Origin: an uncultured bacterium
GTDB lineage: Bacteria; Myxococcota_A; CAZTSL01
DNA: 64,000 nucleotides
Direction of reading: 5' to 3'
Assembly (NCBI GenBank): GCA_964616915.1
Contig: CAZTSL010000002.1
Coordinates: forward strand, 12,090-76,089
Each line of letters begins with the position of its first letter. Positions within the stretch are counted from its first letter, which is position 1. This document shows positions 5,966 through 53,677 of the stretch, piece by piece. The translations under genes and the position numbers were made by a program. The notes under the pieces are model-generated. The model did no database searches. It saw nothing but the letters and a program-made list of their open reading frames with translations, and had not been told where the DNA came from.

Positions 5966-6588
5966 ACCGCATCCTCCATCGAGTCGGTCGCGTCGGCCTG
6001 CCGGCGCCGTGCCATCTTGATCCGGGCGGCCCGGATCACGACGAGCAGGAAGGTGAGCCCGCCGCCGAAGGCGAGCAGCGGCGTCCAGGGGGAGCCAGGC
6101 TGCCCCACCACCATCGGAAAGCGGAGGGTCGAGACGACCTTCCCATCCTGGAAGGTGAGGACGACCTCGTAGTTCCCCTCCGCCGGGTAGACGGGGTAGA
6201 ACTTGAAGACGTTCTCGTCGAGCGTCGTCGTATCGGGTCCGAAGACGACCTTCTTCCCCCCGAAGATCCCCTGCTCCTGGATCGTGAGCGTCATCGGAAG
6301 ATCGTAGGGCGTCCGATCGAGACGGGAGACGACATAGACGTTGAGCTGCGTCCGCTCCCCGGGGGCGGGGTTGCCCGGATAGCTCGTCAACTGGAACTCC
6401 CAGTCGCCCACGTCCTCGAGGAGCTTGAGCACCGGCGCCTGGGGATAGTTCTCGTCGTAGGCGTAGTGGGGGATCCCCATGATGTGATGCGCGGCCGCGG
6501 CGGTGGGGAGGAGGAGCAGGAGAGAGGCCAGCGCCCCCCCCCACCCGCGCCAGGGAGGGATTCCCATTCCTTTCCGGTCACGCGACAT
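5962..6588 (-). CDS. Exported protein of unknown function embedded in the nap-like operon; signal peptide, His-rich N-terminus and C-terminal TM anchor
   Basis: Probable start at MSRDRKGMGIPPWRGWGGALASLLLLLPTAAAAHHIMGIPHYAYDENYPQ. C-terminal helix LLAFGGGLTFLLVVIRAARIKMARRR. Start codon uncertain, alternatives 6567-6693. Confidence 0.5.
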   Translation of the reverse strand: MSRDRKGMGIPPWRGWGGALASLLLLLPTAAAAHHIMGIPHYAYDENYPQAPVLKLLEDVGDWEFQLTSYPGNPAPGERTQLNVYVVSRLDRTPYDLPMTLTIQEQGIFGGKKVVFGPDTTTLDENVFKFYPVYPAEGNYEVVLTFQDGKVVSTLRFPMVVGQPGSPWTPLLAFGGGLTFLLVVIRAARIKMARRRQADATDSMEDAV

Positions 6589-40399: not shown

Positions 40400-41272
40400 G
40401 GTCGATTCTCCTCTCTTGCAGGGGTAAGGACGATCACGACCTCCGCCCGGAGCGGAAAGGGAAGATGCGCGTCATTGGCCACACAGCCACGGAACCGACG
40501 GCCACGCGGTGAAGTCTCCATCCCCATCCCTCCATGAGGGAGGCGTGGTGCAATTCCTGGAAAGAACGCCCAATTCTAGTCGAGATCCCCGGTATTGTCA
40601 ACCAGCCCGAATCTCATCGCCCAGGGCAATCGCATCAAATTTCCCGATAAGATCTGCAATCCCGTAGGATCTCGAAAGCAAGGGAGTTCCCACATGACAG
40701 TCGCCGCTCTCCACGGCGTCTGGTCGGTAATGCGTTCCACCCCTTTCGTGCCCGATGCTCCGATACCATGCGGATTCCGCGAATCATGAGGATTTTCAAT
40801 GCGATTGCCCTGCCGCCTCATCAAAAAAACCTTGACCGCTCCGATCGAAGCATGCTATCGTAACCTTCCGTCGCTCCCAGGGGAAGGGCATGACGAGGGG
40901 AGCAGGACGAAAGGGAGCGACTCGAGCAGGACGAAAGGGGACGACTCGAGCCTCGCCTCGGAAGGGGAGCCGACAGAACGAGGCGGCACAAGGGAAGGGG
41001 GAAATGCACGCAACGTCGGAGAAGGATGACAGGAAAAGGGGAGAGGAGGAGCACTTCCGGAGACGGCCGGGATGGGGTTGGCGCCATCCCCGCCTCAAGG
41101 CCACCCTCGCCTTCCTTACGCTCCTCTTTGCCGTCCATCTCCTCTTTCTCCTCCACTTCCTCCTCTCCCGCCACAGTACCCCTGTTCCGACTCCCCTCTC
41201 CGCTTCCCCCCTCTCCCTGATGCAGGGACGCGGGTAGCGCCGGCATCCTTACCGCGGGAGGAAGAGCGTTTC

Positions 41273-43618
41273 ATGCACGTCCGGATACGCAACCTTTGGG
41301 CTCTGGGGTGCGGTGTGCTCCTCTTTTTCTTTTTCGCTGCCGGCGAACTTCGGGCCCAGGGGCAACCCCACCAGACGATCCTCCTCCTCGATCATTCGAA
41401 GAGCATGAAGGGGAACGATCCCTTCTTCCTGAACCACTTCGCCGCCCACCTCCTCGTCGATCTGGCGGCCCCCCGTGACGAGATCGGCATCTTCGACTTG
41501 CAATCCTCCGTCGTTCCGATGGATCCGGTCGCGGGGAGGAAAGAGGCGCTCCATGCCGCCATCGACCACCTCTCCTATGGGGGGAAAACCCCCTGCGCGA
41601 CCCCCCTTTCCCGCGCCCTTACGGAACTGAAGGAGAAACAACGGCCGGAGGCGCTTGCGAGTATCGTCTTCCTCACCGATGGGGTCTGCGACGAGGACGA
41701 TCCGATCGAGAAAGCGCTTCCCGCGCTGCAAGCGGCCAGGATCCCGGTCTTCACGATCGCGCTGGGGAAAGAGACGGAACATCGCCGGCAGTTGCAGCGG
41801 CTCGCCGAGCAGACGGGAGGAATCCCCTTCGCCGTGACGGACGCGGCGGATCTACCGGAGGTCTTCGCGAAACTCGCCGGCCGTCTCCATGGGGCGGAGT
41901 ACCAAAGCGGCATGCTCGCCCGTGGAGAACAGATCTTCGCCGCCGCCCCCTACCTCGAACGGATCGTGCTCCTCGCCGCGGGGAAGGTCGAGACGGCCCG
42001 TTTCTTCGGGCTCCATTCCCCCACCGGTCCGGTGGCCCTCGATGGGAAGAACGCCCGCATCCGCTCCTTTGCGAACCACCGTCATCCCAACGCCCCCGAG
42101 GTCTATACGATCGTGGAGATTCCGGAACCGCCCCCCGGAGAGTGGCGCTACGAGGTGGAAGGGAAAGAAGAGAAATTCTCCGTGGCCGTGATCCAGATCT
42201 TCGACCTCGTCCTCTCCCTGGAAGGGCATCCGCAACGGGTCGAGGGGAAGGAAACCGTGGAACTCGTGGCCCGGCTGGCAACCTCCCGGGGAAGAGTGCC
42301 CGATCCCGCGTTCCTGCGGCAGGTTTCGGTGACCCTCCATCACCGCCCCCCCGGCGGCGATTTTCAGCGTTGGGGTCCCCTCCCCTTCGACGGGAAAGGG
42401 GCGTTCCGCACCCGTCTTTCCCTTCCGGAACCGGGGGAACACGTCTTCTACGCCGTGGCGCGCTACCAGCAGCATCTGAACCGCCGCAGTCCGCTTCGCT
42501 CGATCGAACGCCTGGAGCCCCCCCCCGAAGGGTGCCGCCTTCGCTTCCTCGAGGCCGAGGCGTGCCATCGGAAGGGGGATGTCCCCTTCCCCGTGAGCGT
42601 GCGCCTCGAATGCGCCCCTCCCCAGACCCTCTCCGCGGCCTACCAGGAAAGCTGCACCGGCCGCCTCTTTGCCCAGTCCCCCGGGGGAGAGGGCTTTGGC
42701 GAGGTCGCATCCTTCTCGTCGGAGCCGGGAGGACGCTACACGGCCCTCGTAACGCTGCCCGAGGAGGGGCATCACCGGCTCCAGGCCCGCCTCGAGTGTC
42801 CGAACACCCGTTTCGTCTCCGGAACGAGTGATCTTTTCGTGGGGGAACTCCCCCCCCTTCTCCCGCTCGATTTCGGAACACCGGAGGGGGGGAGCGTGGC
42901 GACCCGAGGGATCGATCTTTCCCCCTGGCGTCCCTTCCTTCCCCTCGACATCACGTTCCGGCCGGAAGCGCTCACCGGCCCTTCGGCCGCATCGATCGCG
43001 GTCGATGCCGACGGAGCCGGTGGACTCCTCGCCACGCTGAAGATCGCGGGGTGCCGCTCCGAGGGGGAAGGGAACGGGGCGATCGCGATCGTCCCGAAGG
43101 GGTGTCTCTCTCCCGTCGCGCTTCCCGTCTCCTACACGGTCCACCCCACCCCCTTTCTCGCCTGCTATCGGCGGATCTATCTCGGGACGCTGGCGCTGCT
43201 CGGGGGCGCTTTCCTCCTCTACGGATTCCTCTCCCCCCCGGCATTCTCCCCCCGCCGAACGATCTGCTGGAGTGCCTCCCGGCAGGGGTGCGTGGAAAGG
43301 GACCCCACCGCCGCCACGGAGGTGCTCTTCGGGGCGTTGCATGGCCACGGGAAGGGGCGGCGTCGCTGGTATACCCCCGCCCGCCTCTACTTCGGCGGTC
43401 CCGACGACTTCCTCGGACCCAAGGGGGAAACGCCCGTGGCCTGGCTCGAAGCCACCCGCTCCGGAATCCTCCTCGTCACCCTCCAGCCGGGACAGACCTT
43501 CCTGTGCACCGAGGGGGGAGGAGAAGAACCGATCACGATGCAGGCGACCCCCCTCCATTACGGCACCGTCTACCGCGTCGATATCGGGGGTGAACACCGC
43601 TATTTCGAAATCCACTGA
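41273..43618 (+). CDS. Membrane-spanning von Willebrand factor A (vWA/MIDAS) domain protein, 781 aa; first gene of the vWA-tubulin-like cluster
   Basis: Start MHVRIRNLWALGCGVLLFFFFAAGELRAQG (signal/anchor). MIDAS LLLDHSKSM (DxSxS) plus VFLTDG. Second TM IYLGTLALLGGAFLLYGFL near residue 700. C-terminal about 130 aa tail. Confidence 0.8.
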   Translation: MHVRIRNLWALGCGVLLFFFFAAGELRAQGQPHQTILLLDHSKSMKGNDPFFLNHFAAHLLVDLAAPRDEIGIFDLQSSVVPMDPVAGRKEALHAAIDHLSYGGKTPCATPLSRALTELKEKQRPEALASIVFLTDGVCDEDDPIEKALPALQAARIPVFTIALGKETEHRRQLQRLAEQTGGIPFAVTDAADLPEVFAKLAGRLHGAEYQSGMLARGEQIFAAAPYLERIVLLAAGKVETARFFGLHSPTGPVALDGKNARIRSFANHRHPNAPEVYTIVEIPEPPPGEWRYEVEGKEEKFSVAVIQIFDLVLSLEGHPQRVEGKETVELVARLATSRGRVPDPAFLRQVSVTLHHRPPGGDFQRWGPLPFDGKGAFRTRLSLPEPGEHVFYAVARYQQHLNRRSPLRSIERLEPPPEGCRLRFLEAEACHRKGDVPFPVSVRLECAPPQTLSAAYQESCTGRLFAQSPGGEGFGEVASFSSEPGGRYTALVTLPEEGHHRLQARLECPNTRFVSGTSDLFVGELPPLLPLDFGTPEGGSVATRGIDLSPWRPFLPLDITFRPEALTGPSAASIAVDADGAGGLLATLKIAGCRSEGEGNGAIAIVPKGCLSPVALPVSYTVHPTPFLACYRRIYLGTLALLGGAFLLYGFLSPPAFSPRRTICWSASRQGCVERDPTAATEVLFGALHGHGKGRRRWYTPARLYFGGPDDFLGPKGETPVAWLEATRSGILLVTLQPGQTFLCTEGGGEEPITMQATPLHYGTVYRVDIGGEHRYFEIH

Positions 43619-43742
43619 AAGGCAATGGGGGCAATGGAGAGAGCCACCATGCAAGACGCACCGGGGAGAGCCAACGAACGAGATCTCCATCGCAACGCGG
43701 GGAGCATCCTTTTCCCACGGCAGCCATCAGGAGGAATACGCC

Positions 43743-46700
43743 ATGGCCGATCAGATCTACCCGACCTTCTTCATCGGACTGGGGGGAACCGGGGGTAAGA
43801 CGGTAAACCGGATCGCCAGGAAGTTCAAGACGAACTGGAACTACGAGACGCTGCGCAACTCCGTCGCCTTCTTCACCTTCGACACCGACCGTAGCGATCT
43901 CGAAGGGTTCAGCGACATCCCCAAGGAAAACCGTTTTCTCCTCCACATCCCCCGCAAGAAGGAGTTCGTGGATCGCGTGCGGGGCGCGGGCTACCTCGAC
44001 CCCGATCCCTTCTACACGAGCTGGATGCACCCCGACTACGGCTTCCACATCGAAGGAGGAAAGGGCGCCGGGCAGATCCGGATCGAATCACGCCTCACCT
44101 TCACCTACCGGATCGAGCATCCCGACCTGCAGCTTGGACATCGGGACATCCTCCGCGCTTTCCAGGACGCGATCGGCAGGGCACTCGATCCGGACAACAA
44201 CGCCACGAGGCGGCAGCCCGCCTACTTCCAGATCTTCTGCTTCGGTTCGATCGCCGGGGGGACGGGGAGCGGATCGTTCCTCCCCCTCGCCTATACCCTT
44301 CAACACCTCCTCCAGGAGCGAGGATGGGAAACGATCACCGCTCTTTGCCTCTTCGATCCGGAGGTCTTCGAGCCGGAGGTCCAGAACGCGCTCAAAAAGG
44401 ACATCCAGGCCAACGGCTACGCTGCGCTCATGGAGACGGACCACTTCATGCGCCTTTCGGCCGAGGGGGGACATCACTCCCTCCCGAAGAAGATCCGGTT
44501 CCATACACGGAAGGCATGGCCCCGTCTCGTCGATCGCGCCCCGGCCACGATCGTGTACCTCTGCGGAATCCCGAAACATTTCTCGATGGAGAAGATCGCC
44601 TCGATGATCAATGCCGTGGCCGATGCGAGCTACTTCCAGGTCTTCTCTCCCCTCCTCGGTCTCCAGGAGGCCGAATCGGTCAACTTCGTTCGACATCAGC
44701 TCGGGCTCGTGCAGCAGGTCTTCTCCGCCCACTACGGCGCCTTCGGCTGCTGCCTCCTTCACGTTCCGGATGAAGACATCCTCCTCTACTGCGGCCTCCG
44801 TTTCGCCGAGACGGCCCTGCGCCGCTACGTCCTCCTCGAAGGAGAGGTCGAACTCCTCGAGGGAGAGGGGGAAGAGAACCTCTCCGAGGAGGAGAAGGCC
44901 GACGCCGAAGACGAGCGCTTCTGCTTCTGGATCGACCGGAAGGCGGAAGAGGAAGTACGGGATCGAAAGAGGGAGGGCATCTTCCAGAAGATCCGGGGGG
45001 GGCGCCTCCCATCGGGAGAAACCCTCCAGGAAGTGATCGAAGCCGCGGTCGCCGAAACCCTCCAGGAGATCCCCCAGGCGATCCGCCTCAGCCGTCTCTC
45101 CACGAACGACCTCTCGGAATACCGCTACGGCCTCGATCCCTACCGGAACCGACTCGTCGAAGAACTCGCGGAATCGAAGGCCCGACTCCAACGCCATCTG
45201 CGCACCGTCACCTACGACATCGCCAACGGAACCTTCCTCGGCCGCATCTTCAAGGGCTGTCAGGCCGATCCCTTCATGCAGCGCTATGCCCTCATCGATC
45301 TCAAACGGAGACTCAGAACGGCGATCTCCGATGGACAGGAGCCCAGGAATCCCGACGACCCCACCGCATCCGCGGTCATCGATCGGCTCCGCTCCTGGGA
45401 GGACGAACTGGCCCGAACCGCACCCTATACGATGAAGGAGCGTCTCTTCCAGCGAGAGAACCGCGACTTCATCGAGACGAGGGAGCAGGCGGTCGCCGAC
45501 TTCAACCGCGTCGTCGAGGCGAATCAGCGGGCCATGGAAGCCCATGCGAAACGGGAGATCGAGGAGGCCCTCTTCCACCAGGTCATGGAACGACTCCGTG
45601 CCTTCCGTACCCTCATGTCGCTGGGCAAGGCGCTCGTGGAGGAACTGGAAGAGGAAGCCGACCGCTTCCAGCGCTCGGGCGTGCCCCCGGAGGGAGAATC
45701 GCAGGCCAACGCCTTCTTCCTCGACGAGGAGGCGCTCCAGGACCTCGAGGGCAACCGCCTCTGGAAGACCTTCTACGAAGCGGAGATCGTCCCCAAGGAG
45801 GTCGAACTCTTCCAGCCCGCCGAAATCTTCGCCGCCATCGAGGAAGCCTCCGCCCCCCGCCTCGATCCCCGGGGAAGAACCCAATCCCCCACACCAGAAG
45901 AGGTCCGCCGCGCCCTCAAGGCGAAACTCGTCCAGCTCGGGTGCAAACGCTTGCGCCCCCGGATCGTCGGCATGGAAAGGAATGTCGCCCCCCGCGATCA
46001 ACAGGGCCTCCTCATCGACGAAGCCCTCCTCCTCGAAGCGAGGTTCGTCCTCGAAAAGCGCCAGAAGGCCGGCGAAATCCTCTCCTTCGGCCCCGATGAG
46101 ATCGCCGCGTACATCCGGGAGAAGCTCGGCCATGCGAAACGGAGAAGCGGGCATCTGGCCAAGATCGAGAATCTGGAGGACCCCGAGGTGAAGCCCTGCC
46201 CGATCTCGCTCGTGGCCTTCCACGAATGCTACCAGGAGGCCCTTCCCCACCAGAACGGCTCCCTGGCCGATCATCTCCGCGAGATCTCTCCCGAAGGACG
46301 CTGGGTCGAAAACTGGCACGACCGCAAGCGGATCGTCTTCTACCAGGCCACCCTCGGCGTCCCCCTCTTCTATTTCCCCTACGTCCGAAAGACGCTGCGT
46401 CAGGCATACGAGGAACTCGACGCCAAGGGGGTCAAGGAGCGAGGCTATCCCCTCCATATCGACGCCGCCTTCGAGAAGCGGCTCTGCCCCCTCACCCCCG
46501 AAAGACTCCAGGAGTTCCTCGCCCGCAGCCTCGAGGAACGCGTCGCCCCCCGCTTCGTCCTCGGTACCCTCGCCGGCATCGTCTCCCACCAGGACGGCGC
46601 ATACCACTGGAAATTCGGCGAAAGATGGGGGGACACGCTCGGAAGTGATCTCTCCCAGGCCCTCCGGACCTACGACGCACTCGAGCCCGCGATCGCCGAA

Positions 46701-46925
46701 CGGATCTCCCGCAAACTCGAAGAGACCGAAAGGCGTCTCAAGAGCGATCCACAGCTCCGCACCGCCCTCGAAGCCCTTCGCACCACCTACGAAGAAGCGA
46801 TCCTCGACCGGAAATTCCCGAAACGACAGCTACAGGACGCCCAGACGGCCCGGATCGACGAGATCCCCATCCTCGAGAAACTCAAGAGCGCCTGTGAGGA
46901 TCTCCTCCAGAGCACGAGCGCGTAG
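43743..46925 (+). CDS. FtsZ/tubulin-superfamily GTPase with about 700 aa C-terminal extension (1060 aa); not a canonical cell-division FtsZ
   Basis: T1 loop YPTFFIGLGGTGGKTVNRIARKF (compare FtsZ GGGGxNAVNRM). T4 / tubulin signature FCFGSIAGGTGSGSFLPLA (GGTGSG). Charged, coiled-coil-like E/R-rich C-terminal region. Confidence 0.8.
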   Translation: MADQIYPTFFIGLGGTGGKTVNRIARKFKTNWNYETLRNSVAFFTFDTDRSDLEGFSDIPKENRFLLHIPRKKEFVDRVRGAGYLDPDPFYTSWMHPDYGFHIEGGKGAGQIRIESRLTFTYRIEHPDLQLGHRDILRAFQDAIGRALDPDNNATRRQPAYFQIFCFGSIAGGTGSGSFLPLAYTLQHLLQERGWETITALCLFDPEVFEPEVQNALKKDIQANGYAALMETDHFMRLSAEGGHHSLPKKIRFHTRKAWPRLVDRAPATIVYLCGIPKHFSMEKIASMINAVADASYFQVFSPLLGLQEAESVNFVRHQLGLVQQVFSAHYGAFGCCLLHVPDEDILLYCGLRFAETALRRYVLLEGEVELLEGEGEENLSEEEKADAEDERFCFWIDRKAEEEVRDRKREGIFQKIRGGRLPSGETLQEVIEAAVAETLQEIPQAIRLSRLSTNDLSEYRYGLDPYRNRLVEELAESKARLQRHLRTVTYDIANGTFLGRIFKGCQADPFMQRYALIDLKRRLRTAISDGQEPRNPDDPTASAVIDRLRSWEDELARTAPYTMKERLFQRENRDFIETREQAVADFNRVVEANQRAMEAHAKREIEEALFHQVMERLRAFRTLMSLGKALVEELEEEADRFQRSGVPPEGESQANAFFLDEEALQDLEGNRLWKTFYEAEIVPKEVELFQPAEIFAAIEEASAPRLDPRGRTQSPTPEEVRRALKAKLVQLGCKRLRPRIVGMERNVAPRDQQGLLIDEALLLEARFVLEKRQKAGEILSFGPDEIAAYIREKLGHAKRRSGHLAKIENLEDPEVKPCPISLVAFHECYQEALPHQNGSLADHLREISPEGRWVENWHDRKRIVFYQATLGVPLFYFPYVRKTLRQAYEELDAKGVKERGYPLHIDAAFEKRLCPLTPERLQEFLARSLEERVAPRFVLGTLAGIVSHQDGAYHWKFGERWGDTLGSDLSQALRTYDALEPAIAERISRKLEETERRLKSDPQLRTALEALRTTYEEAILDRKFPKRQLQDAQTARIDEIPILEKLKSACEDLLQSTSA

Positions 46926-46963: not shown

Positions 46964-49450
46964 ATGGAGCACCTCTTCATGATTCCGAACCCCACCCTCC
47001 TGATCGCCGGAGGAACGATCGGTAGAGACGTCACCGAGGTGATCGAAGCAGAGATCGAACGCCTCGCCCACTTCGGCCTGATCGAAGGACGTGAACGCTT
47101 CGACACCTTCCTCCCCGAACCGAATGGAGCGATCACCGAGGGTCTGCGCCAGCGCCTCGATCTGAACCTGAGACGCTGGGATGTACAGTTCCGAGAGCGT
47201 CCCAGCGACCGCCAACAGATCGATCTCTTCTTCGTGGCCGACCTGGCCGACCCGGAGATCACCCGGGCCTGGATGACGGCGGTGATCGAGGGGATCGAGG
47301 GATTTCTCGAGAGCATCCCCCGCCTGATCGAGGGGGGGTGCGACGTCCTCCTCCTTCCGATCCTCGTGCTCCCCCTTCTCCGCAAGCGTGGGGACCTCGA
47401 AGCCGCCGTTCCCCTCCTTTCGTTCCGCGACCGGCGCAGGGGCTGCGCCCCCATCTTCCTCATCGAGAACCAGAGCGCGAAGTTCACGATGCGTCCCGAG
47501 GAACAGGCGGATCTCGTGGCGACCTTCATCCGTCTCCTCGTCTTCGGAAACCTCCGGTATCACGAAGGGTTGCGGCGGATCTTCGAGCATCGTAGCGGGG
47601 ATCCCTTCGGGACGTTCATGATCGAGAGCGCCGAGCTTCCCACGGTCGAGGCCTTCGCCTACTGTGCGGACCGGTATGCCTGCGAGATCCTCGCCCGCGT
47701 CTCTCCGGTCAAGACCGCGGAGGGGGGAGATCTGTCGGTAACCGCGCCCTCGGGCCTCTCCCGCCCCGACCCCGCCACCCTCCACGAGGCCCTCGTGCGG
47801 CAACGGGAATGGGGGTCGCTCGAGGCACATCTGCGGGATTTCTGCGCAAGACTCCTCCCCGAGTTCCGCTTCCGCCCCGTAGGCCTCCTCGAGCCTCGGG
47901 AACGCGTCGCCGCCTTCTATACCCCCCACTGGCACGAAGCCAACCTCGAACGCCTCGACACCGCGCTCGATCGGAGCGAATACCTCCTGATCGACGAGAG
48001 CATCGCGGTCGTCGAAAAACGGGGCATCGCCACCCTCCTCGATGCGGTTCGCGATCTCGCCGCAACGATCGACCGGCGAATCGGCGTGCGAGAGGAGGGC
48101 GCAGGCGCACGGAAGCCGAAAGAGGCGCCGGAACCGGATGAAGGGGTCCATCGCTGCCGCAAACGGGTCGAACGCTTCGCCAGGGAGATCGCCGCGGAGA
48201 AGGGTTCGGCGCATCGCCGTCTCGAGCGCTTCCCCCCCCGCCCCCGCTGGGAGGCCTACCGGCAGGGCTACGAGGAACTCTGCGATGCGATCGCGGCCAA
48301 ACCCCGTTTCTCCACCCTCTGCTTCTTCGGCCTCCCCCTGGCGTTCCTGACGACCCTCTTCTCCGCTCCCCTCCTGGCGCCCCTCTTCGAGCGTTTCTCC
48401 GCTGCACTCGGGATTGAGCGTTCCTTCCTCTCCCATACGGCGGCTGCGCTCCTCACCCTTCTCCTCCTTGGCTATCTCGGGCATCTCGTCCTCGAATGGG
48501 GATGCGCCCCCCTCTACGACCTGATCGGTGATGGTTCTTCGCTGACCCAGAGGAAGGCTCCCGGCCGTCTCGGCACGATCCTCCAGAGGAGTGTCCTCTC
48601 GAAGGGGGGGGGACTCCTGGGCCATATCTGGCACCGCGTCTCCTTTGCCCGGGACCTCTGGATCATCCGGATCGAGGGGGCGCTCGAACGGCGGGTGCTG
48701 CGGGAGCGGGACGCCCTCGAACACCTGGAGCGCAGCGCGATCCGCCAGGGAGAGGGAATGCGCCGCAGGCTCGAGGAACGCGGCGCGCGCCATCTCGAGG
48801 GAGGCGCCTTCGATCCCACCGGTATCCGGCTTCCCGAAACGACGCTCCGGAGGTTCCTCTGTCCCCCCCGCTTCTTTCCCCGTCTCTACGAGGGGGACGA
48901 TCCTCCGGACCCGATCGAGGGGGAACGCGAGTTCCGGCGGGAATTCTTCTCCCCGCAATGGCGCCATTTCCCCCCCTATGCCGATCCCGGTCTCCTCGAT
49001 GCGTTCGCCCGGCGTCCCTTCCGTTCCGTCGTGACCGGTGAACGTTTCTCCCTCGACCCAGAGATCAAGCGCCATGTCGCTGCGGCGTTCGAGACCTTCT
49101 GTAACGAGACGCAGCGTCTCTCCCTCCCCCTCGAAATCGTCGAACACCGCGACCCGGATGGTTTCCGGGGGATCGAGGTCACGCTCATCCCCCCCGCCTT
49201 CTCTTCATTCTCGGAGCGCGGAACGGCGCGGGAGGAAATTTCGATCGAGGAGCCGAATCGTACCTATCGACTCACCGTCGTCTATGACATCGATGAGGCG
49301 GCATTGCCGGTCGAAGGGGGAGGAGAGACCGCTTCCCTTCCAGGAGGCGCGAGGAGGGATGCCGCGGAGGGTCGATCCGCAGGGGAAGGGGGAGAGATCC
49401 CCCCGGCCAAGGGGGGAGGGCCGATTCCTCTCCGGAGGAAGGAATCGTGA
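46964..49450 (+). CDS. Large uncharacterised protein (828 aa) with two central TM helices; N-terminus possibly a degenerate second tubulin/FtsZ-like fold
   Basis: MIPNPTLLIAGGTIGRDV (GxGGxG-like) ... GGCDVLLLPILVLPL. TM segments FSTLCFFGLPLAFLTTLFSAPLLAPLF and AALLTLLLLGYLGHLVL. 38-nt gap after the tubulin-like gene. Confidence 0.5.
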   Translation: MEHLFMIPNPTLLIAGGTIGRDVTEVIEAEIERLAHFGLIEGRERFDTFLPEPNGAITEGLRQRLDLNLRRWDVQFRERPSDRQQIDLFFVADLADPEITRAWMTAVIEGIEGFLESIPRLIEGGCDVLLLPILVLPLLRKRGDLEAAVPLLSFRDRRRGCAPIFLIENQSAKFTMRPEEQADLVATFIRLLVFGNLRYHEGLRRIFEHRSGDPFGTFMIESAELPTVEAFAYCADRYACEILARVSPVKTAEGGDLSVTAPSGLSRPDPATLHEALVRQREWGSLEAHLRDFCARLLPEFRFRPVGLLEPRERVAAFYTPHWHEANLERLDTALDRSEYLLIDESIAVVEKRGIATLLDAVRDLAATIDRRIGVREEGAGARKPKEAPEPDEGVHRCRKRVERFAREIAAEKGSAHRRLERFPPRPRWEAYRQGYEELCDAIAAKPRFSTLCFFGLPLAFLTTLFSAPLLAPLFERFSAALGIERSFLSHTAAALLTLLLLGYLGHLVLEWGCAPLYDLIGDGSSLTQRKAPGRLGTILQRSVLSKGGGLLGHIWHRVSFARDLWIIRIEGALERRVLRERDALEHLERSAIRQGEGMRRRLEERGARHLEGGAFDPTGIRLPETTLRRFLCPPRFFPRLYEGDDPPDPIEGEREFRREFFSPQWRHFPPYADPGLLDAFARRPFRSVVTGERFSLDPEIKRHVAAAFETFCNETQRLSLPLEIVEHRDPDGFRGIEVTLIPPAFSSFSERGTAREEISIEEPNRTYRLTVVYDIDEAALPVEGGGETASLPGGARRDAAEGRSAGEGGEIPPAKGGGPIPLRRKES

Positions 49451-52290
49451 AGGAACTCCTCGAAACCTTCCTGGCCTGGTTCGTCGCTTTGACGATGAGC
49501 GGCACGTTCGGTTTCGTGCTCGCCTTCGGCGGCGGGCTGCTGGGCGCCCTGCTCCTCGTCGGCCTGGTCTGGCTCCCCTCCCGCGGGCGCACGCGCCCGG
49601 CCGGCGGGATCGCCTGGGCGCTGGGCACCGTCTCTTTCCTCGGGATCTTCCTCCTCGGCCTCCTCGTCGATCTCCTCCTGGGGGGGGAACTCGAAATCCG
49701 GACGATCGGGCGCCTCCCCGTGCTCGCGAAACTCGTTCCCCTGGCCCACGTTCCCCGGGTTGCCCTCCCCCTCTACCAGGCCCTCTTCCTCCTCGTCGAT
49801 CTCCTCATCGTCTGGGGGGTGTGGCGGATCGTCTGCGCGGCCGATCACCGGGGGGCCTTCGCCGGTCACCCCTCGATCGGGCTCACCGGTCGTCTCGATC
49901 CGTGGCGGATCGATCCCTCCTTCCGGCGGTGGTTCCGCTTCGTGGCGTGGGGGTGGAGTCTCGTGGTCGTGATCGCCTTCGTGGGGATCGTGCGCAAGAG
50001 TTTCCCCCTCTCCCCAGCCTCCTGGGTGGCGGGGGAGATCTTCGCCCTGGGGGCCCTGGCCACCCTCTACGCCCGGGGGAAGGCCCCGGTCGAGGCCGAG
50101 GCCGAGGAACCGGAGGAGGATACGGAGCAAGCTCCGGCCGTCCCCTCCCCCCTCGACAAGCTCGAGCGCCTCCTCGACGAGGCGGGCTACGAGATCCGGG
50201 AGCCCCGACGCGAACTCGATCCCCAACGGGGTGTCGAGGGGCGGGTTCCCTTCACCTCCCCCCTCCTCCAGGAGTTCTCCCCTCTCCTCTTCGGCGGTCC
50301 TCCCTGGCAGCACCAGGAGGCCGGGGTCGCGCGCCTCGCCGGGATGCTCGCCGAAATGCACGACACCCCCCAACGGGAAGCGGCGCTGCTCCTGCAGGGG
50401 GCCTACGGGAGCGGACGCAGCACCCTCCTCTTCGCCCTGGCGCTCACCGTGGCCCTGGAGGTGAACCGGAACGTCCTCTTCATCGAGCCGGATCGGACGC
50501 GGGCAGCGGGACGATTCAAGCGCTTCGACACGGTCGTCCGGCGTTCGAGCCTCCGATGGAGCCTCCCCCGCTCGCTCGATTCAGCGCTCGAAGAGGCTGG
50601 CGCCGGCAAAGGGGTCGATCTCTTCGCCGAGGGGCGCATGCCCCTTCTGCGTCTCACGACCCCTCGGGAACTCGAACACGATCTTTCCGAGGCAACACGG
50701 GGGGACCCACAGCAGACCGCCCGGCTACGCCGCGCCTTCCACGAGGCCCTCTCCCTCGTCGTCGTCGATGACGTGGATGGCTATGCCCCGGAAGCGTTGG
50801 CGGAACTCGGGCTCCTCCTCCACCGCCTGCGGCTTCGCGTTCGGCAGGAACAAGCGCGGCAGATGTCACTCGTGGTCGCGCTTTCGGCCAGGGCCGGTTT
50901 CGGGGTGGATGCGGTCCGGATCTTGACGGGGATGGAGCGGATCGAGATGCTCCCCTGCACCGCTGCGCCGCAGTGCAAGCGGCGGATTCGATTCCTCTTC
51001 CCCACCCGTCCCGATCCGCACCCCCTCTCCCGACTTCCCTTCCACGAGGCGGGGATCCGGACCTATGCGACCTGGGATCTCGACGCGCCCGCCCCCTTCT
51101 CCTTTCCGGAGCGTCACCCCCCCGTGGGTACCCTCTTCGAATCCCCCCCTTCGCTGCAGCCTCCCCCCCCGGTCTCGGAGGGGAGTGCTGCGGGGGCCTG
51201 TGATCCCCTCCGCGCAGAGGTCACCTTTCTGACGGGCGGTTTTCCCCTCTTCGATGTCGTGGAAGGGGAGAGCCGGCACTTCGGGAGCGTATCGGGGAAG
51301 AAGATGCACGGGGTCTTCCACCTCGTCTCCCCCGATCCCCTCTCCGAGGCGCTCCTCGATATCGATATCCCACGGGTGGCGCGGACCTTCCGCCCCTTCC
51401 CCTTCGACGAGGCGCGGGTCACGAAACACCTTCGCCGCTGCGAGCCCGCCGCGGCTTCCACCCTCCGGGAGATCTTTGGGGAGGCGCGCGTCGCGGCGTT
51501 CCTCGAGCGCTTCCCCGCCGCAAAGGTTCGGGAATTCTGGGATCTTCGGGAGGATCGTCTCGTGCGGGACACCTGGATCGATCCAACCCTCCTCCCGCCC
51601 GAAAGGGGGGGAGAAGGGGAACCTTGGACGCGCGGCCTCGAGGGCGTGATCGCGCATCCCCCCGAGGGGATCGCCCCCCTCCTCGTGCCGGGGCGGATCG
51701 TCGGCAAAGGGCGGGAGGCCTTCCTCCTCGAGGAGGCGGGACGGCTCACCCCGCACCCGACCCCCACCTTCACCCGGCCGATACGCAGCGTCTCCCTCCA
51801 CGACGCGGAGGTCCTCTGGCGAAAGACCCTCACGCTCCGCCTCGAGGAAGAGGAGGTGACGCTCACCGCGGCGGAGGTGGTGGGGGAGATCGAAGAGCAG
51901 ATCTTCGGGATGCGCCGTCACAGCGCGGATGGCGTACGTCTGGGGGAAGAGCGCTTCGAGTCGCCGATCCCCTTCCGCAGACGGGGACATGCCCTCCAGC
52001 TCGAAATGCCGGTCAAGGGGGTTCGCTCGGCCACGGCCTTCTCGCTTGCGCTTTCCCTCCTCTCCCCCCTCTCCGAAGATCTTCTCGATGCCGCCTTCAT
52101 CCCGGGGGGGGTCCTCCTCTTTGGCCGGGTTTCCCTCGACCTCCTGGCCCCCTGGCGGAGCACCGAGGCCCTCCGGGAACTCGTCGCCCTTTCACGCTGG
52201 TTGACCGAACGGGCGGTCAGGGCACTCGACGATTTCGCCAAGGACCTTCCCCACTCCCCAGACGAAGCCCGGGACCGGTCTCAGGAATAG
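49447..52290 (+). CDS. Membrane-anchored protein (4 N-terminal TM) with atypical P-loop NTPase-like domain (947 aa)
   Basis: GTG start overlapping the upstream stop (translational coupling). Four hydrophobic helices. Walker-A-like [18 protein letters not shown] (Arg in place of Lys). Walker-B-like [11 protein letters not shown]. Confidence 0.55.
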
Positions 52291-53087
52291 CTGTGTTCCT
52301 CCCCCGGGAAGGCCCCCTCCTTGACCTCTTCCACGTAGTGCCGGACCGCCTTGGTGATCACCTCACTCAGGTTCGCGTAGCGCTTGACGAATTTCGGGGT
52401 GAAGCCATCGAACATGCCGACGAGATCGTGGAAGACGAGCACCTGGCCGTCGCAGTGGAGCCCGGCACCGATCCCGATCGTGGGGATCGAGAGGCTCTCG
52501 GTGATCTCCCGGGCAAGGTCGCCAGGCATCCCCTCGAGGACGACGGAGAAGGCGCCGGCTTCCTCCACGGCCCTGGCATCCTCGAGGAGGCGTTGCCGGG
52601 CCCCGTTGCTCCGTCCCTGCACCCGGAACCCACCGAAGCGGTGGATCGATTGGGGGGTGAGCCCGATGTGCCCCATCACCGGCACATCCATGTCGGTGAT
52701 CGCGGCGATCGTGGAGGCCACGTTCCGCCCCCCCTCGAGCTTGACCGCCTGGGCTCCCGATTCCTTGATGAGGCGAAAGGCGCTGCGCTTCCCCTCCTCC
52801 ACGGAGTTCTGGTAGGAGCCAAAGGGCATGTCCGCCACCACGAAGGCCCGCGTCACACCGCGACAGACCGCCTTCGTGTGATAGATGATCTCATCGAGCG
52901 TGACGGGGAGGGTATTCTCCAGCCCCTGGATGACCATGCCGAGCGAATCGCCCACGAGAAGCATATCGACGCCACAGGCATCGAGAATCCGTGCCGTCGG
53001 GTAGTCGTATGCCGTAATCATCGAGATCTTCTCACCTTCTCGCTTCATCTTGCCGAAGTCGAGGATGGTTCTTCGTTTTTGCTGCAT
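52281..53087 (-). CDS. panB: 3-methyl-2-oxobutanoate hydroxymethyltransferase (ketopantoate hydroxymethyltransferase)
   Basis: [32 protein letters not shown]..., [24 protein letters not shown]. Start at internal Met 53087. Confidence 0.85.
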
Positions 53088-53677
53088 CTGTCCTTCCTTC
53101 TCCCCTTGCCCCGCCGGCGCTGTGCGGAGACACCGGAAAGGGGCAGGGGGAATCCGGTCGTTACCGTTCACCCCTTCGGGATTCGCTTCCCGCAAACCGG
53201 GATCGCGATGACGAAGGTGTTCTCCTCCCCCCTTCCCCCCGTCCCACCCGGGACGACGGCCCTGAAACGCACCGGTGGGAGGAGATGCGCGCTTTCAACT
53301 GTGCGTTTCTCGACAAGGCATGATAACCCAAGGGGGAGGGAACGATCAAGTACCCGCAGGCGCTACCGGTCCAACCCCGTGCAGTCCATCTCCTTGCCCG
53401 GAGATCCGGGTATCCCCCGATCCCCGATCCGCCGTGATCGTTCATGGAGGCAACACCGACGGGGGGTAACAGCCGGGTACGGTTAACAGGGGCAACCCCG
53501 CTCGGGGAGGAAAGATCGAGGAATGCCGAGAGAAAGAAGAGGGAACGGAAGTTGCTTTTCCCTTGTCGAGAAAGGGGAATGCTCGGAGAAACGAAGCACC
53601 CCGAGCAGGGATGAACGGATCCTCGAGGGCCAAATCCCTCCCCTGACGCCACGATCACGAACTTCAGGAGGCATAGA

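What the first reader, a model, noticed from the sequence alone, without database searches (positions are those of the whole stretch)
49447..52290. Membrane-anchored P-loop protein with Arg replacing the Walker-A lysine
[12 protein letters not shown] has the spacing of a Walker A motif but carries Arg instead of the invariant Lys. A classic Walker B (LVVVDDVDG) follows about 100 residues later. The protein is either a regulatory pseudo-ATPase or an unusual NTPase. It is translationally coupled to the upstream gene.
Basis: seen in the sequence. Interest (0 to 1): 0.5.

Follow-up and report, generated by a model that had tools for sequence, protein, structure and literature searches.

The report
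Membrane-anchored degenerate helicase beside bacterial tubulin
This gene encodes a membrane-anchored protein whose nucleotide-binding domain is a decayed helicase domain (arginine where the catalytic lysine should be), and it is always found as the last gene of a rare four-gene cluster built around a bacterial tubulin-like protein, which points to a nucleotide-binding adaptor rather than a working helicase.

Summary
ORF 49447-52290 (+) encodes a 947-aa protein with 4-6 N-terminal hydrophobic helices, GAYGSGRST (Arg324, codon CGC), LVVVDDVDG 117 residues later, and a 4-nt GTGA overlap with the upstream gene.

The family is very rare: 4 relatives among 1.84 billion representative proteins, 18 after targeted scans. 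The 'invariant lysine' position varies: R 10, K 5, V 2, A 1, with at least 3 K/R switches. The Arg also occurs in Lys-rich relatives, so it is not GC drift. The F..Q motif, glycine loop, Ser/Thr and Walker-B Asp are conserved. No second helicase lobe or DUF1998 module is detectable.

In 12 of 13 loci with upstream DNA the gene is fourth in a module: exported vWA protein, FtsZl1/Tubulin_2, TM-hairpin protein, this protein. Genes 3 and 4 overlap in all 12.

Best reading: an ATP-binding, hydrolysis-impaired pseudo-helicase adaptor of a membrane-bound tubulin-like machine. This is inferred, not shown. It is a new variant of known kinds and of moderate interest.

The parts
40832..40861 (+). sigma-70-like promoter match upstream of gene A (possible operon promoter)
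   Evidence: TTGACC-18-TATCGT, 9/12 matches with TG. Consensus match only, so weak evidence.
41273..43618 (+). Gene A: exported vWA-domain protein (781 aa) with an N-terminal signal-like hydrophobic segment, an intact MIDAS DxSxS (D40-H-S-K-S44), one C-terminal TM segment (aa ~635-653) and a ~130-aa tail
   Evidence: Pfam VWA E 2.3e-11; gene call in L001; hydrophobic segments; MIDAS read from the translation.
43743..46925 (+). Gene B: FtsZl1 / Tubulin_2 (PF13809) tubulin-like GTPase, 1060 aa, no TM segment, T1 (GLGGTGGK) and T4 (AGGTGSG) loops present
   Evidence: Pfam Tubulin_2 E 5e-43. Tubulin_2 equals the FtsZ-like family of Makarova & Koonin (PMC9871819). Invariant G/T columns in A4.
46979..49450 (+). 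Gene C: 823-aa orphan protein with a central pair of hydrophobic segments (aa ~449-512); its stop overlaps the start of gene D
   Evidence: No Pfam/NCBIfam/PADLOC hit and no homologue. Proteins of the same position, size and central TM hairpin occur in all 12 syntenic loci. Sequence link to those proteins not demonstrable.
49433..49450 (+). Shine-Dalgarno-like GGAGGAAGGAA plus the GTGA start/stop overlap between genes C and D (translational coupling)
   Evidence: C/D overlap is present in all 12 syntenic loci and is exactly 4 nt in 7 of them.
49447..52290 (+). Gene D (the finding): 947-aa membrane-anchored SF2-helicase-like P-loop protein
   Evidence: RME55556.1, 'hypothetical protein', Deltaproteobacteria MAG.
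49447..50076 (+). N-terminal membrane domain of D (aa 1-210): 4-6 hydrophobic helices. Arg-rich loops at aa 46-52 and 134-163 suggest that the C-terminal domains face the cytoplasm (inference).
   Evidence: Hydropathy; helices H2-41, H53-77, H103-134, H157-185, H193-210 in the model. All 18 family members have 4-7 N-terminal hydrophobic segments.
50260..50967 (+). SF2 helicase lobe-1 (RecA1)-like domain of D (aa 272-507)
50290..50316 (+). Q-motif-like FGGPPWQHQ (F282...Q290), the family signature FGGxPTxxQ
   Evidence: F in 14/14 and Q in 13/14 non-redundant members.
50398..50424 (+). Motif I / Walker [10 protein letters not shown]; Arg324 (CGC, 50416-50418) replaces the canonical Lys
50473..50511 (+). 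Motif Ia-like [13 protein letters not shown] (family consensus VLFxVPDxxR; Asp where SF2 helicases have the nucleic-acid-contacting Thr of 'PT')
   Evidence: aligned to the LYLFPTKALAQ of YprA.
50755..50781 (+). Motif II / Walker [10 protein letters not shown] (DD in place of DExH/DEAD), followed by the helix aligned to the family signature R[SA]HLPF[LVF][LI]DKxRL (divergent in the window protein: [11 protein letters not shown])
   Evidence: First Asp 17/18, second Asp 15/18. Aligned to [25 protein letters not shown] of YprA.
50968..52290 (+). C-terminal 440 residues of D: orphan region with no recognisable domain. Only aa ~508-537 align to the closest relative P0002.
   Evidence: No family hit. 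HMMER matches of relatives stop near aa 525. BLAST to L002_D ends at aa 537. hhalign to the downstream modules of the long subfamily gives probability 0.06%. Poorly modelled but with a normal coding signal.

Best explanation
Gene D encodes a polytopic inner-membrane protein. Its cytoplasmic part begins with a domain derived from lobe 1 (RecA1) of an SF2 DExH/DEAD-type helicase, closest to MrfA/YprA. In this family the positions that recognise and hold a nucleotide are under selection: the F..Q adenine-recognition-like motif, the glycine-rich loop, the Ser/Thr after it and the first Walker-B Asp. The positions that perform hydrolysis are not. The Walker-A Lys is Arg here and R/K/V/A across the family. 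The catalytic Glu of DExH is Asp. No SAT motif and no second RecA lobe with an arginine finger can be detected. The most likely function is therefore a pseudo-helicase: a domain that binds ATP (or another nucleotide or phosphate ligand) but hydrolyses it slowly or not at all, and works as a nucleotide-gated adaptor or scaffold rather than a nucleic-acid motor. It is made in fixed ratio with the TM-hairpin protein C through overlapping genes. With C it probably forms the membrane platform that links the exported, MIDAS-bearing vWA protein (gene A) to the cytoplasmic tubulin-like GTPase FtsZl1 (gene B). SHOWN: the motifs, membrane segments and gene overlap; the SF2 lobe-1 fold assignment (on a predicted model); the K/R/V/A variability; the conserved four-gene synteny. 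INFERRED: loss of hydrolysis, retained nucleotide binding, the cytoplasmic orientation, and any physical interaction with A, B or C.
Confidence: 0.55

Rival explanations
1. It is an active, unusual membrane-tethered SF2 NTPase or translocase. Arg324 would substitute functionally for Lys (or Lys-bearing relatives are fast and Arg-bearing ones slow). The enzyme would act on nucleic acid at the membrane, for example as the sensor or motor of an anti-phage system in which incoming DNA triggers the tubulin-like protein.
For: [quoted passage not shown] Five of 18 members keep GKT, and L009 keeps GKT plus DE. Positive charge is kept in 15/18 members. The glycine loop, Ser/Thr, Asp and F..Q motif are all conserved. 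The patchy, rare and fast-diverging distribution (Deltaproteobacteria, Planctomycetota and Hyphomicrobiaceae MAGs, lake metagenomes) resembles accessory or conflict systems.
Against: No second RecA lobe, arginine finger, nuclease or other effector is detectable. The catalytic Glu is Asp in 16/18 members, and three members have Val or Ala at the Lys position. Motif Ia has Asp where helicases use Thr to contact the backbone. There is no PADLOC hit for B, C or D, no relatives on phages or plasmids, and the neighbours in the window are housekeeping genes. K->R in a related SF2 helicase abolishes ATPase (PMC4504706).
Confidence: 0.25
2. It is a STAND-type (nSTAND5-like) signalling NTPase: an AAA+-like switch that oligomerises on ligand binding.
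For: The best single Pfam hit of the window protein is nSTAND_NTPase5 (E 3.8e-6 full length; 32.5 bits for the core alone), and 11/14 member cores hit it at E<=0.01. AAA_16 hits occur in 8/14. An hhhhDD Walker B is typical of STAND proteins (my own knowledge).
Confidence: 0.07
3. It is the diverged P-loop GTPase that Makarova & Koonin found in vWA/FtsZl1 operons, here in a membrane-anchored form.
For: It sits in the same operon type. The archaeal operons carry a 'membrane associated GTPase' (PMC2875224). DVDG can be read as a DxxG G3 motif. Weak profile hits to FlhF and SRP54.
Against: The protein has no [NT]KxD motif anywhere, and none is conserved in the family. The DxxG reading is not conserved, since most members have DDF/DDL without a Gly. 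The FlhF/SRP hits cover only the P-loop and the next strand. Fold searches give SF2 helicases, not GTPases.
Confidence: 0.03
4. The Arg is an artefact: GC-driven Lys-to-Arg drift, a sequencing error, or a decaying pseudogene.
For: The protein has only 1.7% Lys against 10% Arg. GxxxxGR[ST] occurs 10 times by chance in the window.
Against: An independent near-identical copy keeps the Arg. Lys-rich relatives also have Arg. Arg is encoded by CGN in most members. Other P-loop enzymes in the same window keep Lys. The 947-codon frame is intact with strong codon periodicity. Synteny and gene overlap are conserved.
Confidence: 0.02

Closest known systems
MrfA / YprA (DUF1998) DExH-box DNA helicases (B. 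subtilis MrfA, PDB 6znp/6zns/6znq; the family includes DrmA, DpdE/J-type and DruE helicases)
   Different: No second RecA lobe, wHTH, OB or DUF1998/Zn module is detectable. Catalytic residues are altered (K->R/V/A, DExH->DD). A polytopic N-terminal membrane domain is present. The operon is different: no MrfB exonuclease, methylase or nuclease partners. The 2025 survey of the YprA family mentions no tubulin, vWA, FtsZ or transmembrane association.
Deinococcus-Thermus PriA 'pseudohelicase' (PMC4504706)
   Same: It is an SF2 helicase scaffold with a natural GKT->GRT change and a degenerate Walker B. Experiments show that it has lost ATPase and unwinding while keeping binding functions. It is the best functional analogy for what an Arg-bearing SF2 lobe does.
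   Different: It belongs to a different SF2 family (PriA). It is soluble, acts in replication restart, and keeps both RecA lobes and its DNA-binding domains. In PriA the Arg state is fixed in one phylum, whereas here K, R, V and A alternate within a small family.
vWA/FtsZl1 operons ('FtsZ-like 1', Pfam Tubulin_2 PF13809), predicted membrane-remodelling systems (Makarova & Koonin 2010, PMC2875224)
   Same: The window carries the defining pair: a vWA protein with an intact MIDAS next to an FtsZl1/Tubulin_2 gene (E 5e-43), plus lineage-specific membrane proteins.
   Different: The published operons list a GTPase, Ser/Thr kinases, OmpA-like proteins and uncharacterised families A1-A2 and B1-B9, and no helicase-like component. 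This variant has a fixed four-gene order ending in a TM-hairpin protein and a membrane-anchored SF2-like protein. I could not test whether 'B3, large membrane-associated protein' (cgR_2625) is related.
nSTAND_NTPase5 (Pfam PF25199)
   Same: It is the strongest single Pfam signal for the window protein around the P-loop.
   Different: The hit is below threshold, covers the P-loop only, and has the wrong Walker A-B spacing and the wrong predicted fold.
[not shown]
   Different: They are eukaryotic, soluble, nucleic-acid-associated machines with both lobes retained.

Membership tests
SF2 helicase superfamily (lobe 1 / DEAD-like domain) | Collinear motifs Q, I, Ia, Ib/Ic, II with about 100-120 residues between motifs I and II | tested here: met
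   FGGxPTxxQ, GxGSG[RK][ST]T, VLFxVPD, [GA]T[PL]xxxE, hhhhDD; spacing 104-119 aa in 14/14 members.
SF2 helicase superfamily (lobe 1 / DEAD-like domain) | RecA-like lobe-1 fold closest to SF2 helicases | tested here: met
   [not shown]
SF2 helicase superfamily (lobe 1 / DEAD-like domain) | Pfam DEAD (PF00270) or ResIII above the curated threshold | tested here: inconclusive
   The window protein has no DEAD hit. Ten of 14 member cores match DEAD at E<=0.01 (best 3.7e-9) and 4/14 match ResIII. Full-length relatives score 17-23 bits against a cut-off of 26.
SF2 helicase superfamily (lobe 1 / DEAD-like domain) | Catalytic residues: motif I Lys, motif II Asp-Glu, motif III SAT | tested here: not met
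   The window protein has Arg324, DD and SAR. Across the family the positions read R10/K5/V2/A1, with DE in 1/18 members and motif III not conserved.
SF2 helicase superfamily (lobe 1 / DEAD-like domain) | Second RecA lobe with motifs IV-VI (arginine finger) | tested here: not met
   No helicase match for the full-length or downstream profiles. The window C-terminus is unrelated to them. This was a sequence-level test only; the structure was not modelled.
YprA/MrfA (DUF1998) helicase family | C-terminal DUF1998 / Zn-binding module (with wHTH and OB domains) | tested here: not met
   No Pfam DUF1998 hit. The C-terminal profile A8 matched only designed proteins in the PDB. hhalign probability 0.06%.
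YprA/MrfA (DUF1998) helicase family | Lobe 1 more similar to YprA than to other SF2 families | tested here: inconclusive
   [not shown]
Diverged GTPase of vWA/FtsZl1 operons (Makarova & Koonin 2010) | [NT]KxD (TxKD) guanine-specificity motif in addition to Walker A and B | tested here: not met
   No [NT]KxD in the protein, and none conserved in alignment A9.
Diverged GTPase of vWA/FtsZl1 operons (Makarova & Koonin 2010) | Encoded in a vWA/FtsZl1 operon | tested here: met
STAND NTPases (nSTAND_NTPase5, PF25199) | Score above the gathering threshold over the whole NTPase model, including Walker B | tested here: not met
   27.2 bits (full length) and 32.5 bits (core) against a cut-off of 34; only profile positions 31-90 of 145 are matched.
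STAND NTPases (nSTAND_NTPase5, PF25199) | AAA+-like core followed by helical and winged-helix domains | tested here: not met
   [not shown]
vWA/FtsZl1 (Tubulin_2) membrane-associated system | FtsZl1/Tubulin_2 gene next to a vWA gene with MIDAS, plus membrane proteins in one operon | tested here: met
   Tubulin_2 E 5e-43; VWA E 2.3e-11 with DHSKS. All four genes are on one strand with gaps of 124 nt (A-B), 53 nt (B-C) and -4 nt (C-D) on the called gene coordinates. The same order occurs in 12 loci.
Pseudohelicase (functional class, e.g. D. radiodurans PriA) | Helicase ancestry with a natural loss of the Walker-A Lys | tested here: met
Pseudohelicase (functional class, e.g. D. radiodurans PriA) | Experimentally shown absence of NTP hydrolysis with retained binding function | not testable with these tools
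   Requires purified protein.

The most novel reading that the evidence does not exclude
The four genes would encode a previously unrecognised transmembrane machine. An extracellular vWA/MIDAS receptor would be coupled, through a TM-hairpin protein and a helicase-derived ATP-binding pseudo-enzyme, to polymerisation of a tubulin-like GTPase on the cytoplasmic face. That would be a prokaryotic analogue of integrin-to-cytoskeleton 'outside-in' coupling or, alternatively, a new envelope-triggered anti-phage or membrane-repair system. The helicase lobe would have been exapted as a nucleotide-gated tether or regulator of a tubulin homologue, a role not known for any SF2 domain.
Probability: 0.2. Interest if true: 0.8.

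Novelty: new variant of a known kind. Interest (0 to 1): 0.55.

Why it matters
FtsZl1/Tubulin_2 proteins are the most divergent branch of the tubulin/FtsZ superfamily. In the literature I could search, no member has an assigned function or an experimentally defined partner. This finding defines a compact, strictly ordered four-gene version of the FtsZl1 operon. It identifies the last gene as a helicase-derived nucleotide-binding domain bolted to the membrane, with a natural K/R/V/A series at the catalytic lysine. That yields concrete, testable hypotheses: a C-D membrane platform for a tubulin-like polymer, and ATP binding without turnover. It also provides a natural mutational series for asking what an SF2 lobe does once it stops being a motor. 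In addition, it shows that conserved non-canonical Walker-A motifs can mark a whole family rather than a defective gene, which matters for automated annotation; the protein is currently labelled 'hypothetical protein'.

Tried and rejected
1. Word-seeded homology searches with D, with C and with the 5-sequence profile gave nothing beyond self. The family was reached only through the exhaustive HMMER scan.
2. The GTDB genome scan with the window's tubulin-like protein found no relative. The 5-sequence alignment was too divergent for the locus finder.
3. Idea: gene C is a second, degenerate tubulin (N-terminal NPTLLIAGGTIG against PTFFIGLGGTGG). hhalign gave probability 0.2%. Rejected for lack of support.
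4. Idea recalled from memory: a MrfA-like 'helicase + DUF1998' architecture. The downstream and C-terminal profiles hit only de-novo designed proteins, and the full-length profile hit nothing significant. Rejected.
5. Homology of the window's C-terminal 446 aa to the long subfamily's downstream modules: hhalign probability 0.06%. Rejected.
6. GC-driven Lys->Arg drift. Rejected on the basis.
7. Compensating residue (WNK-like relocation of the Lys): no column co-varies with the K/R state.
8. Phage or plasmid origin: no plasmid tblastn hit, no viral contig relative, viral structures fit worse than cellular helicases, and there is no tRNA in the window.
9. Defence-system membership: no significant PADLOC hit (mad8 at E 0.013 is noise).
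10. The window's C and L002's C could not be joined to the C family of the other loci.
The full-length AlphaFold model was too poor to use outside the core (pLDDT 38).
Full report
1. THE OBSERVATION

ORF 49447-52290 (+) is a 947-codon frame starting with GTG. [12 protein letters not shown] lies at aa 318-329 and LVVVDDVDG at aa 437-445, with 117 residues between Arg324 and Asp441. The start overlaps the stop of the upstream ORF in GTGA, and a GGAGGAAGGAA run lies 4-14 nt upstream. The first 210 residues contain four to six strongly hydrophobic segments, modelled as helices. Codon-position GC is about 0.75/0.49/0.83 overall, with GC3 of 0.81-0.90 in the membrane, core and C-terminal parts, so the whole frame is coding. 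NCBI holds a near-identical copy: RME55556.1, 'hypothetical protein', from a Deltaproteobacteria MAG. It differs at 9 residues, all outside the core, and keeps GSGRS and DDVDG.

The bare pattern is not rare here. GxxxxGR[ST] occurs 10 times in long stop-free segments of this Arg-rich window, against 3 for GxxxxGK[ST]. What makes this site real is homology and fold.

2. WHAT THE DOMAIN IS

Curated libraries give nothing above threshold. The hits are nSTAND_NTPase5 at 27 bits (cut-off 34) over the P-loop only, P-loop-only hits in NCBIfam, noise in PADLOC, and no PDB sequence match.

Read directly, the sequence follows the SF2 helicase lobe-1 order:
- PPWQHQ (Q-like motif)
- GAYGSGRST (motif I)
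- [13 protein letters not shown] (motif Ia)
- [14 protein letters not shown] (motif Ib/Ic)
- LVVVDDVDG (motif II)
- VVALSARAG (motif III position)

Three independent tests agree with this reading:
- A profile of the five-member core alignment has YprA/MrfA as its best PDB match (E 8.7e-5). The alignment runs from motif I through motif II and the helix after it. XPD, DDX47, RecG, PriA and Mfd are also listed.
- An AlphaFold model of aa 271-510 (pLDDT 77, pTM 0.81) gives MrfA as the top Foldseek hit (TM 0.62-0.64), then PriA, Hel308 and Pol theta. KaiC and RAD51 reach only TM 0.3-0.4.

The Walker A to Walker B distance is 104-119 residues in all 14 non-redundant members, and the model places two strand-helix units between them. 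This fits SF2 and does not fit STAND/AAA+.

There is no [NT]KxD motif, so the protein is not the diverged GTPase reported in FtsZl1 operons (PMC2875224).

Pfam votes over the 14 cores are split below threshold: nSTAND5 11, DEAD 10, AAA_16 8, ResIII 4. The nSTAND5 matches never extend beyond the strand after the P-loop.

3. HOW RARE IT IS, AND THE K/R QUESTION

Word-seeded searches found only the protein itself. An exhaustive HMMER scan of 1.84 billion representatives found four relatives (E 5e-11 to 2.8e-4). All match only the core, and all have hydrophobic N-termini. Targeted scans added two planctomycete MAG loci and twelve metagenomic loci, giving 18 proteins, 14 of them non-redundant.

At the Walker-A 'lysine' position the family reads R 10, K 5, V 2, A 1. 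In the non-redundant set it reads R 7, K 5, other 2.

K and R are interleaved on a neighbour-joining tree. The window protein (R) pairs with L002 (K). L006 (R) pairs with L015 (K) at 58% core identity. L008 (R) sits among Lys forms. That implies at least three switches.

The Arg is not compositional:
- Relatives with about 5% Lys carry GSGRT or GSGRS.
- Six of the ten Arg codons are CGN, two steps from Lys.
- The window's APS-kinase-type and HflX-type P-loops keep GK[ST].

By contrast, several positions are conserved: F (14/14) and Q (13/14) of FGGxPTxxQ, the glycines of the loop, the Ser/Thr after it and the first Walker-B Asp.

Motif II is DD in most members (15/18). It is DE only in L009, which also has GKT. 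The two Val variants have DG. No other column tracks the K/R state.

So nucleotide-holding positions are selected and hydrolytic positions are not.

4. WHAT IS NOT THERE

Profiles of the whole protein, of the ~330 residues after the core (12 sequences) and of the C-terminal module (10 sequences) find no helicase lobe 2, no DUF1998 and no other solved relative. They match only de-novo designed alpha/beta or helical proteins.

The window protein's own C-terminal 446 residues are unrelated to those modules by hhalign. Apart from about 30 residues shared with P0002, they have no relative in 1.84 billion representatives.

The long subfamily's post-core region looks alpha/beta and has an invariant HLRSxxRF. 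A very divergent second lobe therefore cannot be excluded, and I had no structure-prediction slots left to test it.

5. CONTEXT

In the window, four co-directional genes precede the convergent panB:
- A: 41273-43618, with a signal-like N-terminus, a vWA domain with MIDAS DHSKS, one C-terminal TM segment and a ~130-aa tail.
- B: 43743-46925, Tubulin_2/FtsZl1, E 5e-43, no TM segment.
- C: 46979-49450, an orphan with a central TM hairpin.
- D: 49447-52290, the finding.

The same order is found for P0002, P0003 and P0005, in both planctomycete MAGs and in the metagenomic loci. All 12 loci with enough upstream DNA carry a Tubulin_2-like gene upstream of D. Each has a C-position protein of 700-1200 aa with a central hydrophobic hairpin. 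Each has a C/D overlap, which is 4 nt in seven of them.

The C proteins of the long subfamily are mutually homologous. Those of the window and of L002 cannot be linked to them by sequence.

Every A protein whose N-terminus is on the contig has a vWA domain, often with PKD domains.

One locus (L006) is an exception: D follows a divergent TPR/PQQ gene.

This is the vWA/FtsZl1 operon type of Makarova & Koonin (PMC2875224), and Pfam Tubulin_2 is that family (PMC9871819). Their list of associated families contains no helicase-like component. A 2025 survey of YprA-family helicases mentions no tubulin, vWA, FtsZ or transmembrane link.

There is no relative on plasmids or viral contigs, and viral structures fit worse. 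The window has no tRNA, and the flanking genes are housekeeping genes.

6. MECHANISM

Best-supported reading (0.55): D is a membrane-anchored pseudo-helicase. It has an SF2 lobe 1 that still binds a nucleotide but has lost efficient hydrolysis. It is co-produced with C, and it serves as a nucleotide-gated adaptor between the membrane and vWA part of the system and the cytoplasmic tubulin-like GTPase.

The experimental precedent is Deinococcus-Thermus PriA. It carries a natural GKT->GRT change, has no ATPase or unwinding activity, and retains DNA and DnaB binding. E. coli PriA K230R loses ATPase and helicase activity (PMC4504706).

Loss of hydrolysis, retained binding, cytoplasmic orientation and all protein contacts are inferences.

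Rivals:
- An active, unusual membrane-tethered motor or DNA sensor, possibly defensive (0.25).
- A STAND switch (0.07).
- The FtsZl1-operon GTPase (0.03).
- An artefact (0.02).

7. NOVELTY AND VERDICT

The parts belong to known kinds: the SF2 fold, pseudohelicases and vWA/FtsZl1 operons. Three things were not described in anything I could search:
- An SF2 lobe fused to a polytopic membrane domain.
- Its fixed place as the fourth, overlapping gene of a vWA-FtsZl1-C-D module.
- The natural R/K/V/A series at the catalytic lysine.

I rate it a new variant of a known kind, interest 0.55. The tools add the helicase identity, the family-wide variability of the 'invariant' lysine and the tubulin-linked operon.

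Noticed in passing
window 46979-47040 (start of gene C); L002 ~6400-6480: Gene C begins MIPNPTLLIAGGTIGRDV, and its counterpart in L002 has NPVIFVGVGG. Both resemble the T1-loop start of the neighbouring tubulin-like gene (YPTFFIGLGGTGGK). A second, degenerate tubulin-like partner would be interesting, but hhalign gave only a 17-column match with probability 0.2%.
   Followed up: partly
window 52281-52290: The 3' end of gene D overlaps by 10 nt the 3' end of the convergently transcribed panB (52281-53195, -). This leaves no room for a terminator between them.
   Followed up: no
window ~19800 (+ strand), stop-free segment of at least 3081 aa: A giant open frame contains ...GAASDGRSKSPTAP..., which from my own knowledge resembles a ketosynthase motif. 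This is probably a polyketide or hybrid megasynthase gene elsewhere in the window (seen).
   Followed up: no
L003, L006, L008, L009, L011-L022: N-termini of the D proteins: The long subfamily has an invariant cytoplasmic N-terminal motif LG(R/P)WSSHP(S/D)(W/F) before the first TM helix. It is absent from the window protein and from P0002, which form a separate subfamily.
   Followed up: no
L021 7498-11430; L022 965-4912; L014 435-5078: Three members have Val or Ala at the Walker-A Lys position (GAGVTT, GAGAST). The two Val forms also changed Walker B from DD to DG. Both motifs therefore degenerated together in one clade while the rest of the core stayed conserved.
   Followed up: partly
L006 3-2966 (-) and 3346-6270 (+): This is the one family member not preceded by the tubulin-like and C genes. 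Its upstream neighbour is a divergently transcribed TPR + PQQ/BamB-like beta-propeller protein. The contig is short (6.5 kb), so the other genes could lie elsewhere.
   Followed up: partly
window 43272-43742 and high-GC antisense frames across 43-52 kb: Many long ORFs (up to 839 aa) lie on other frames and on the opposite strand of genes A-D. They have Arg/Gly/Pro-rich translations and are typical high-GC shadow ORFs, not genes. The mechanical ORF for gene B starts 471 nt upstream of the likely true start (MADQIYPTFF at 43743).
   Followed up: partly
window 43234-43618 (C-terminal tail of gene A, aa ~654-781): After its single C-terminal TM segment, the vWA protein has a ~130-residue predicted cytoplasmic tail with no recognisable domain. 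It is a candidate contact point for the cytoplasmic components.
   Followed up: no
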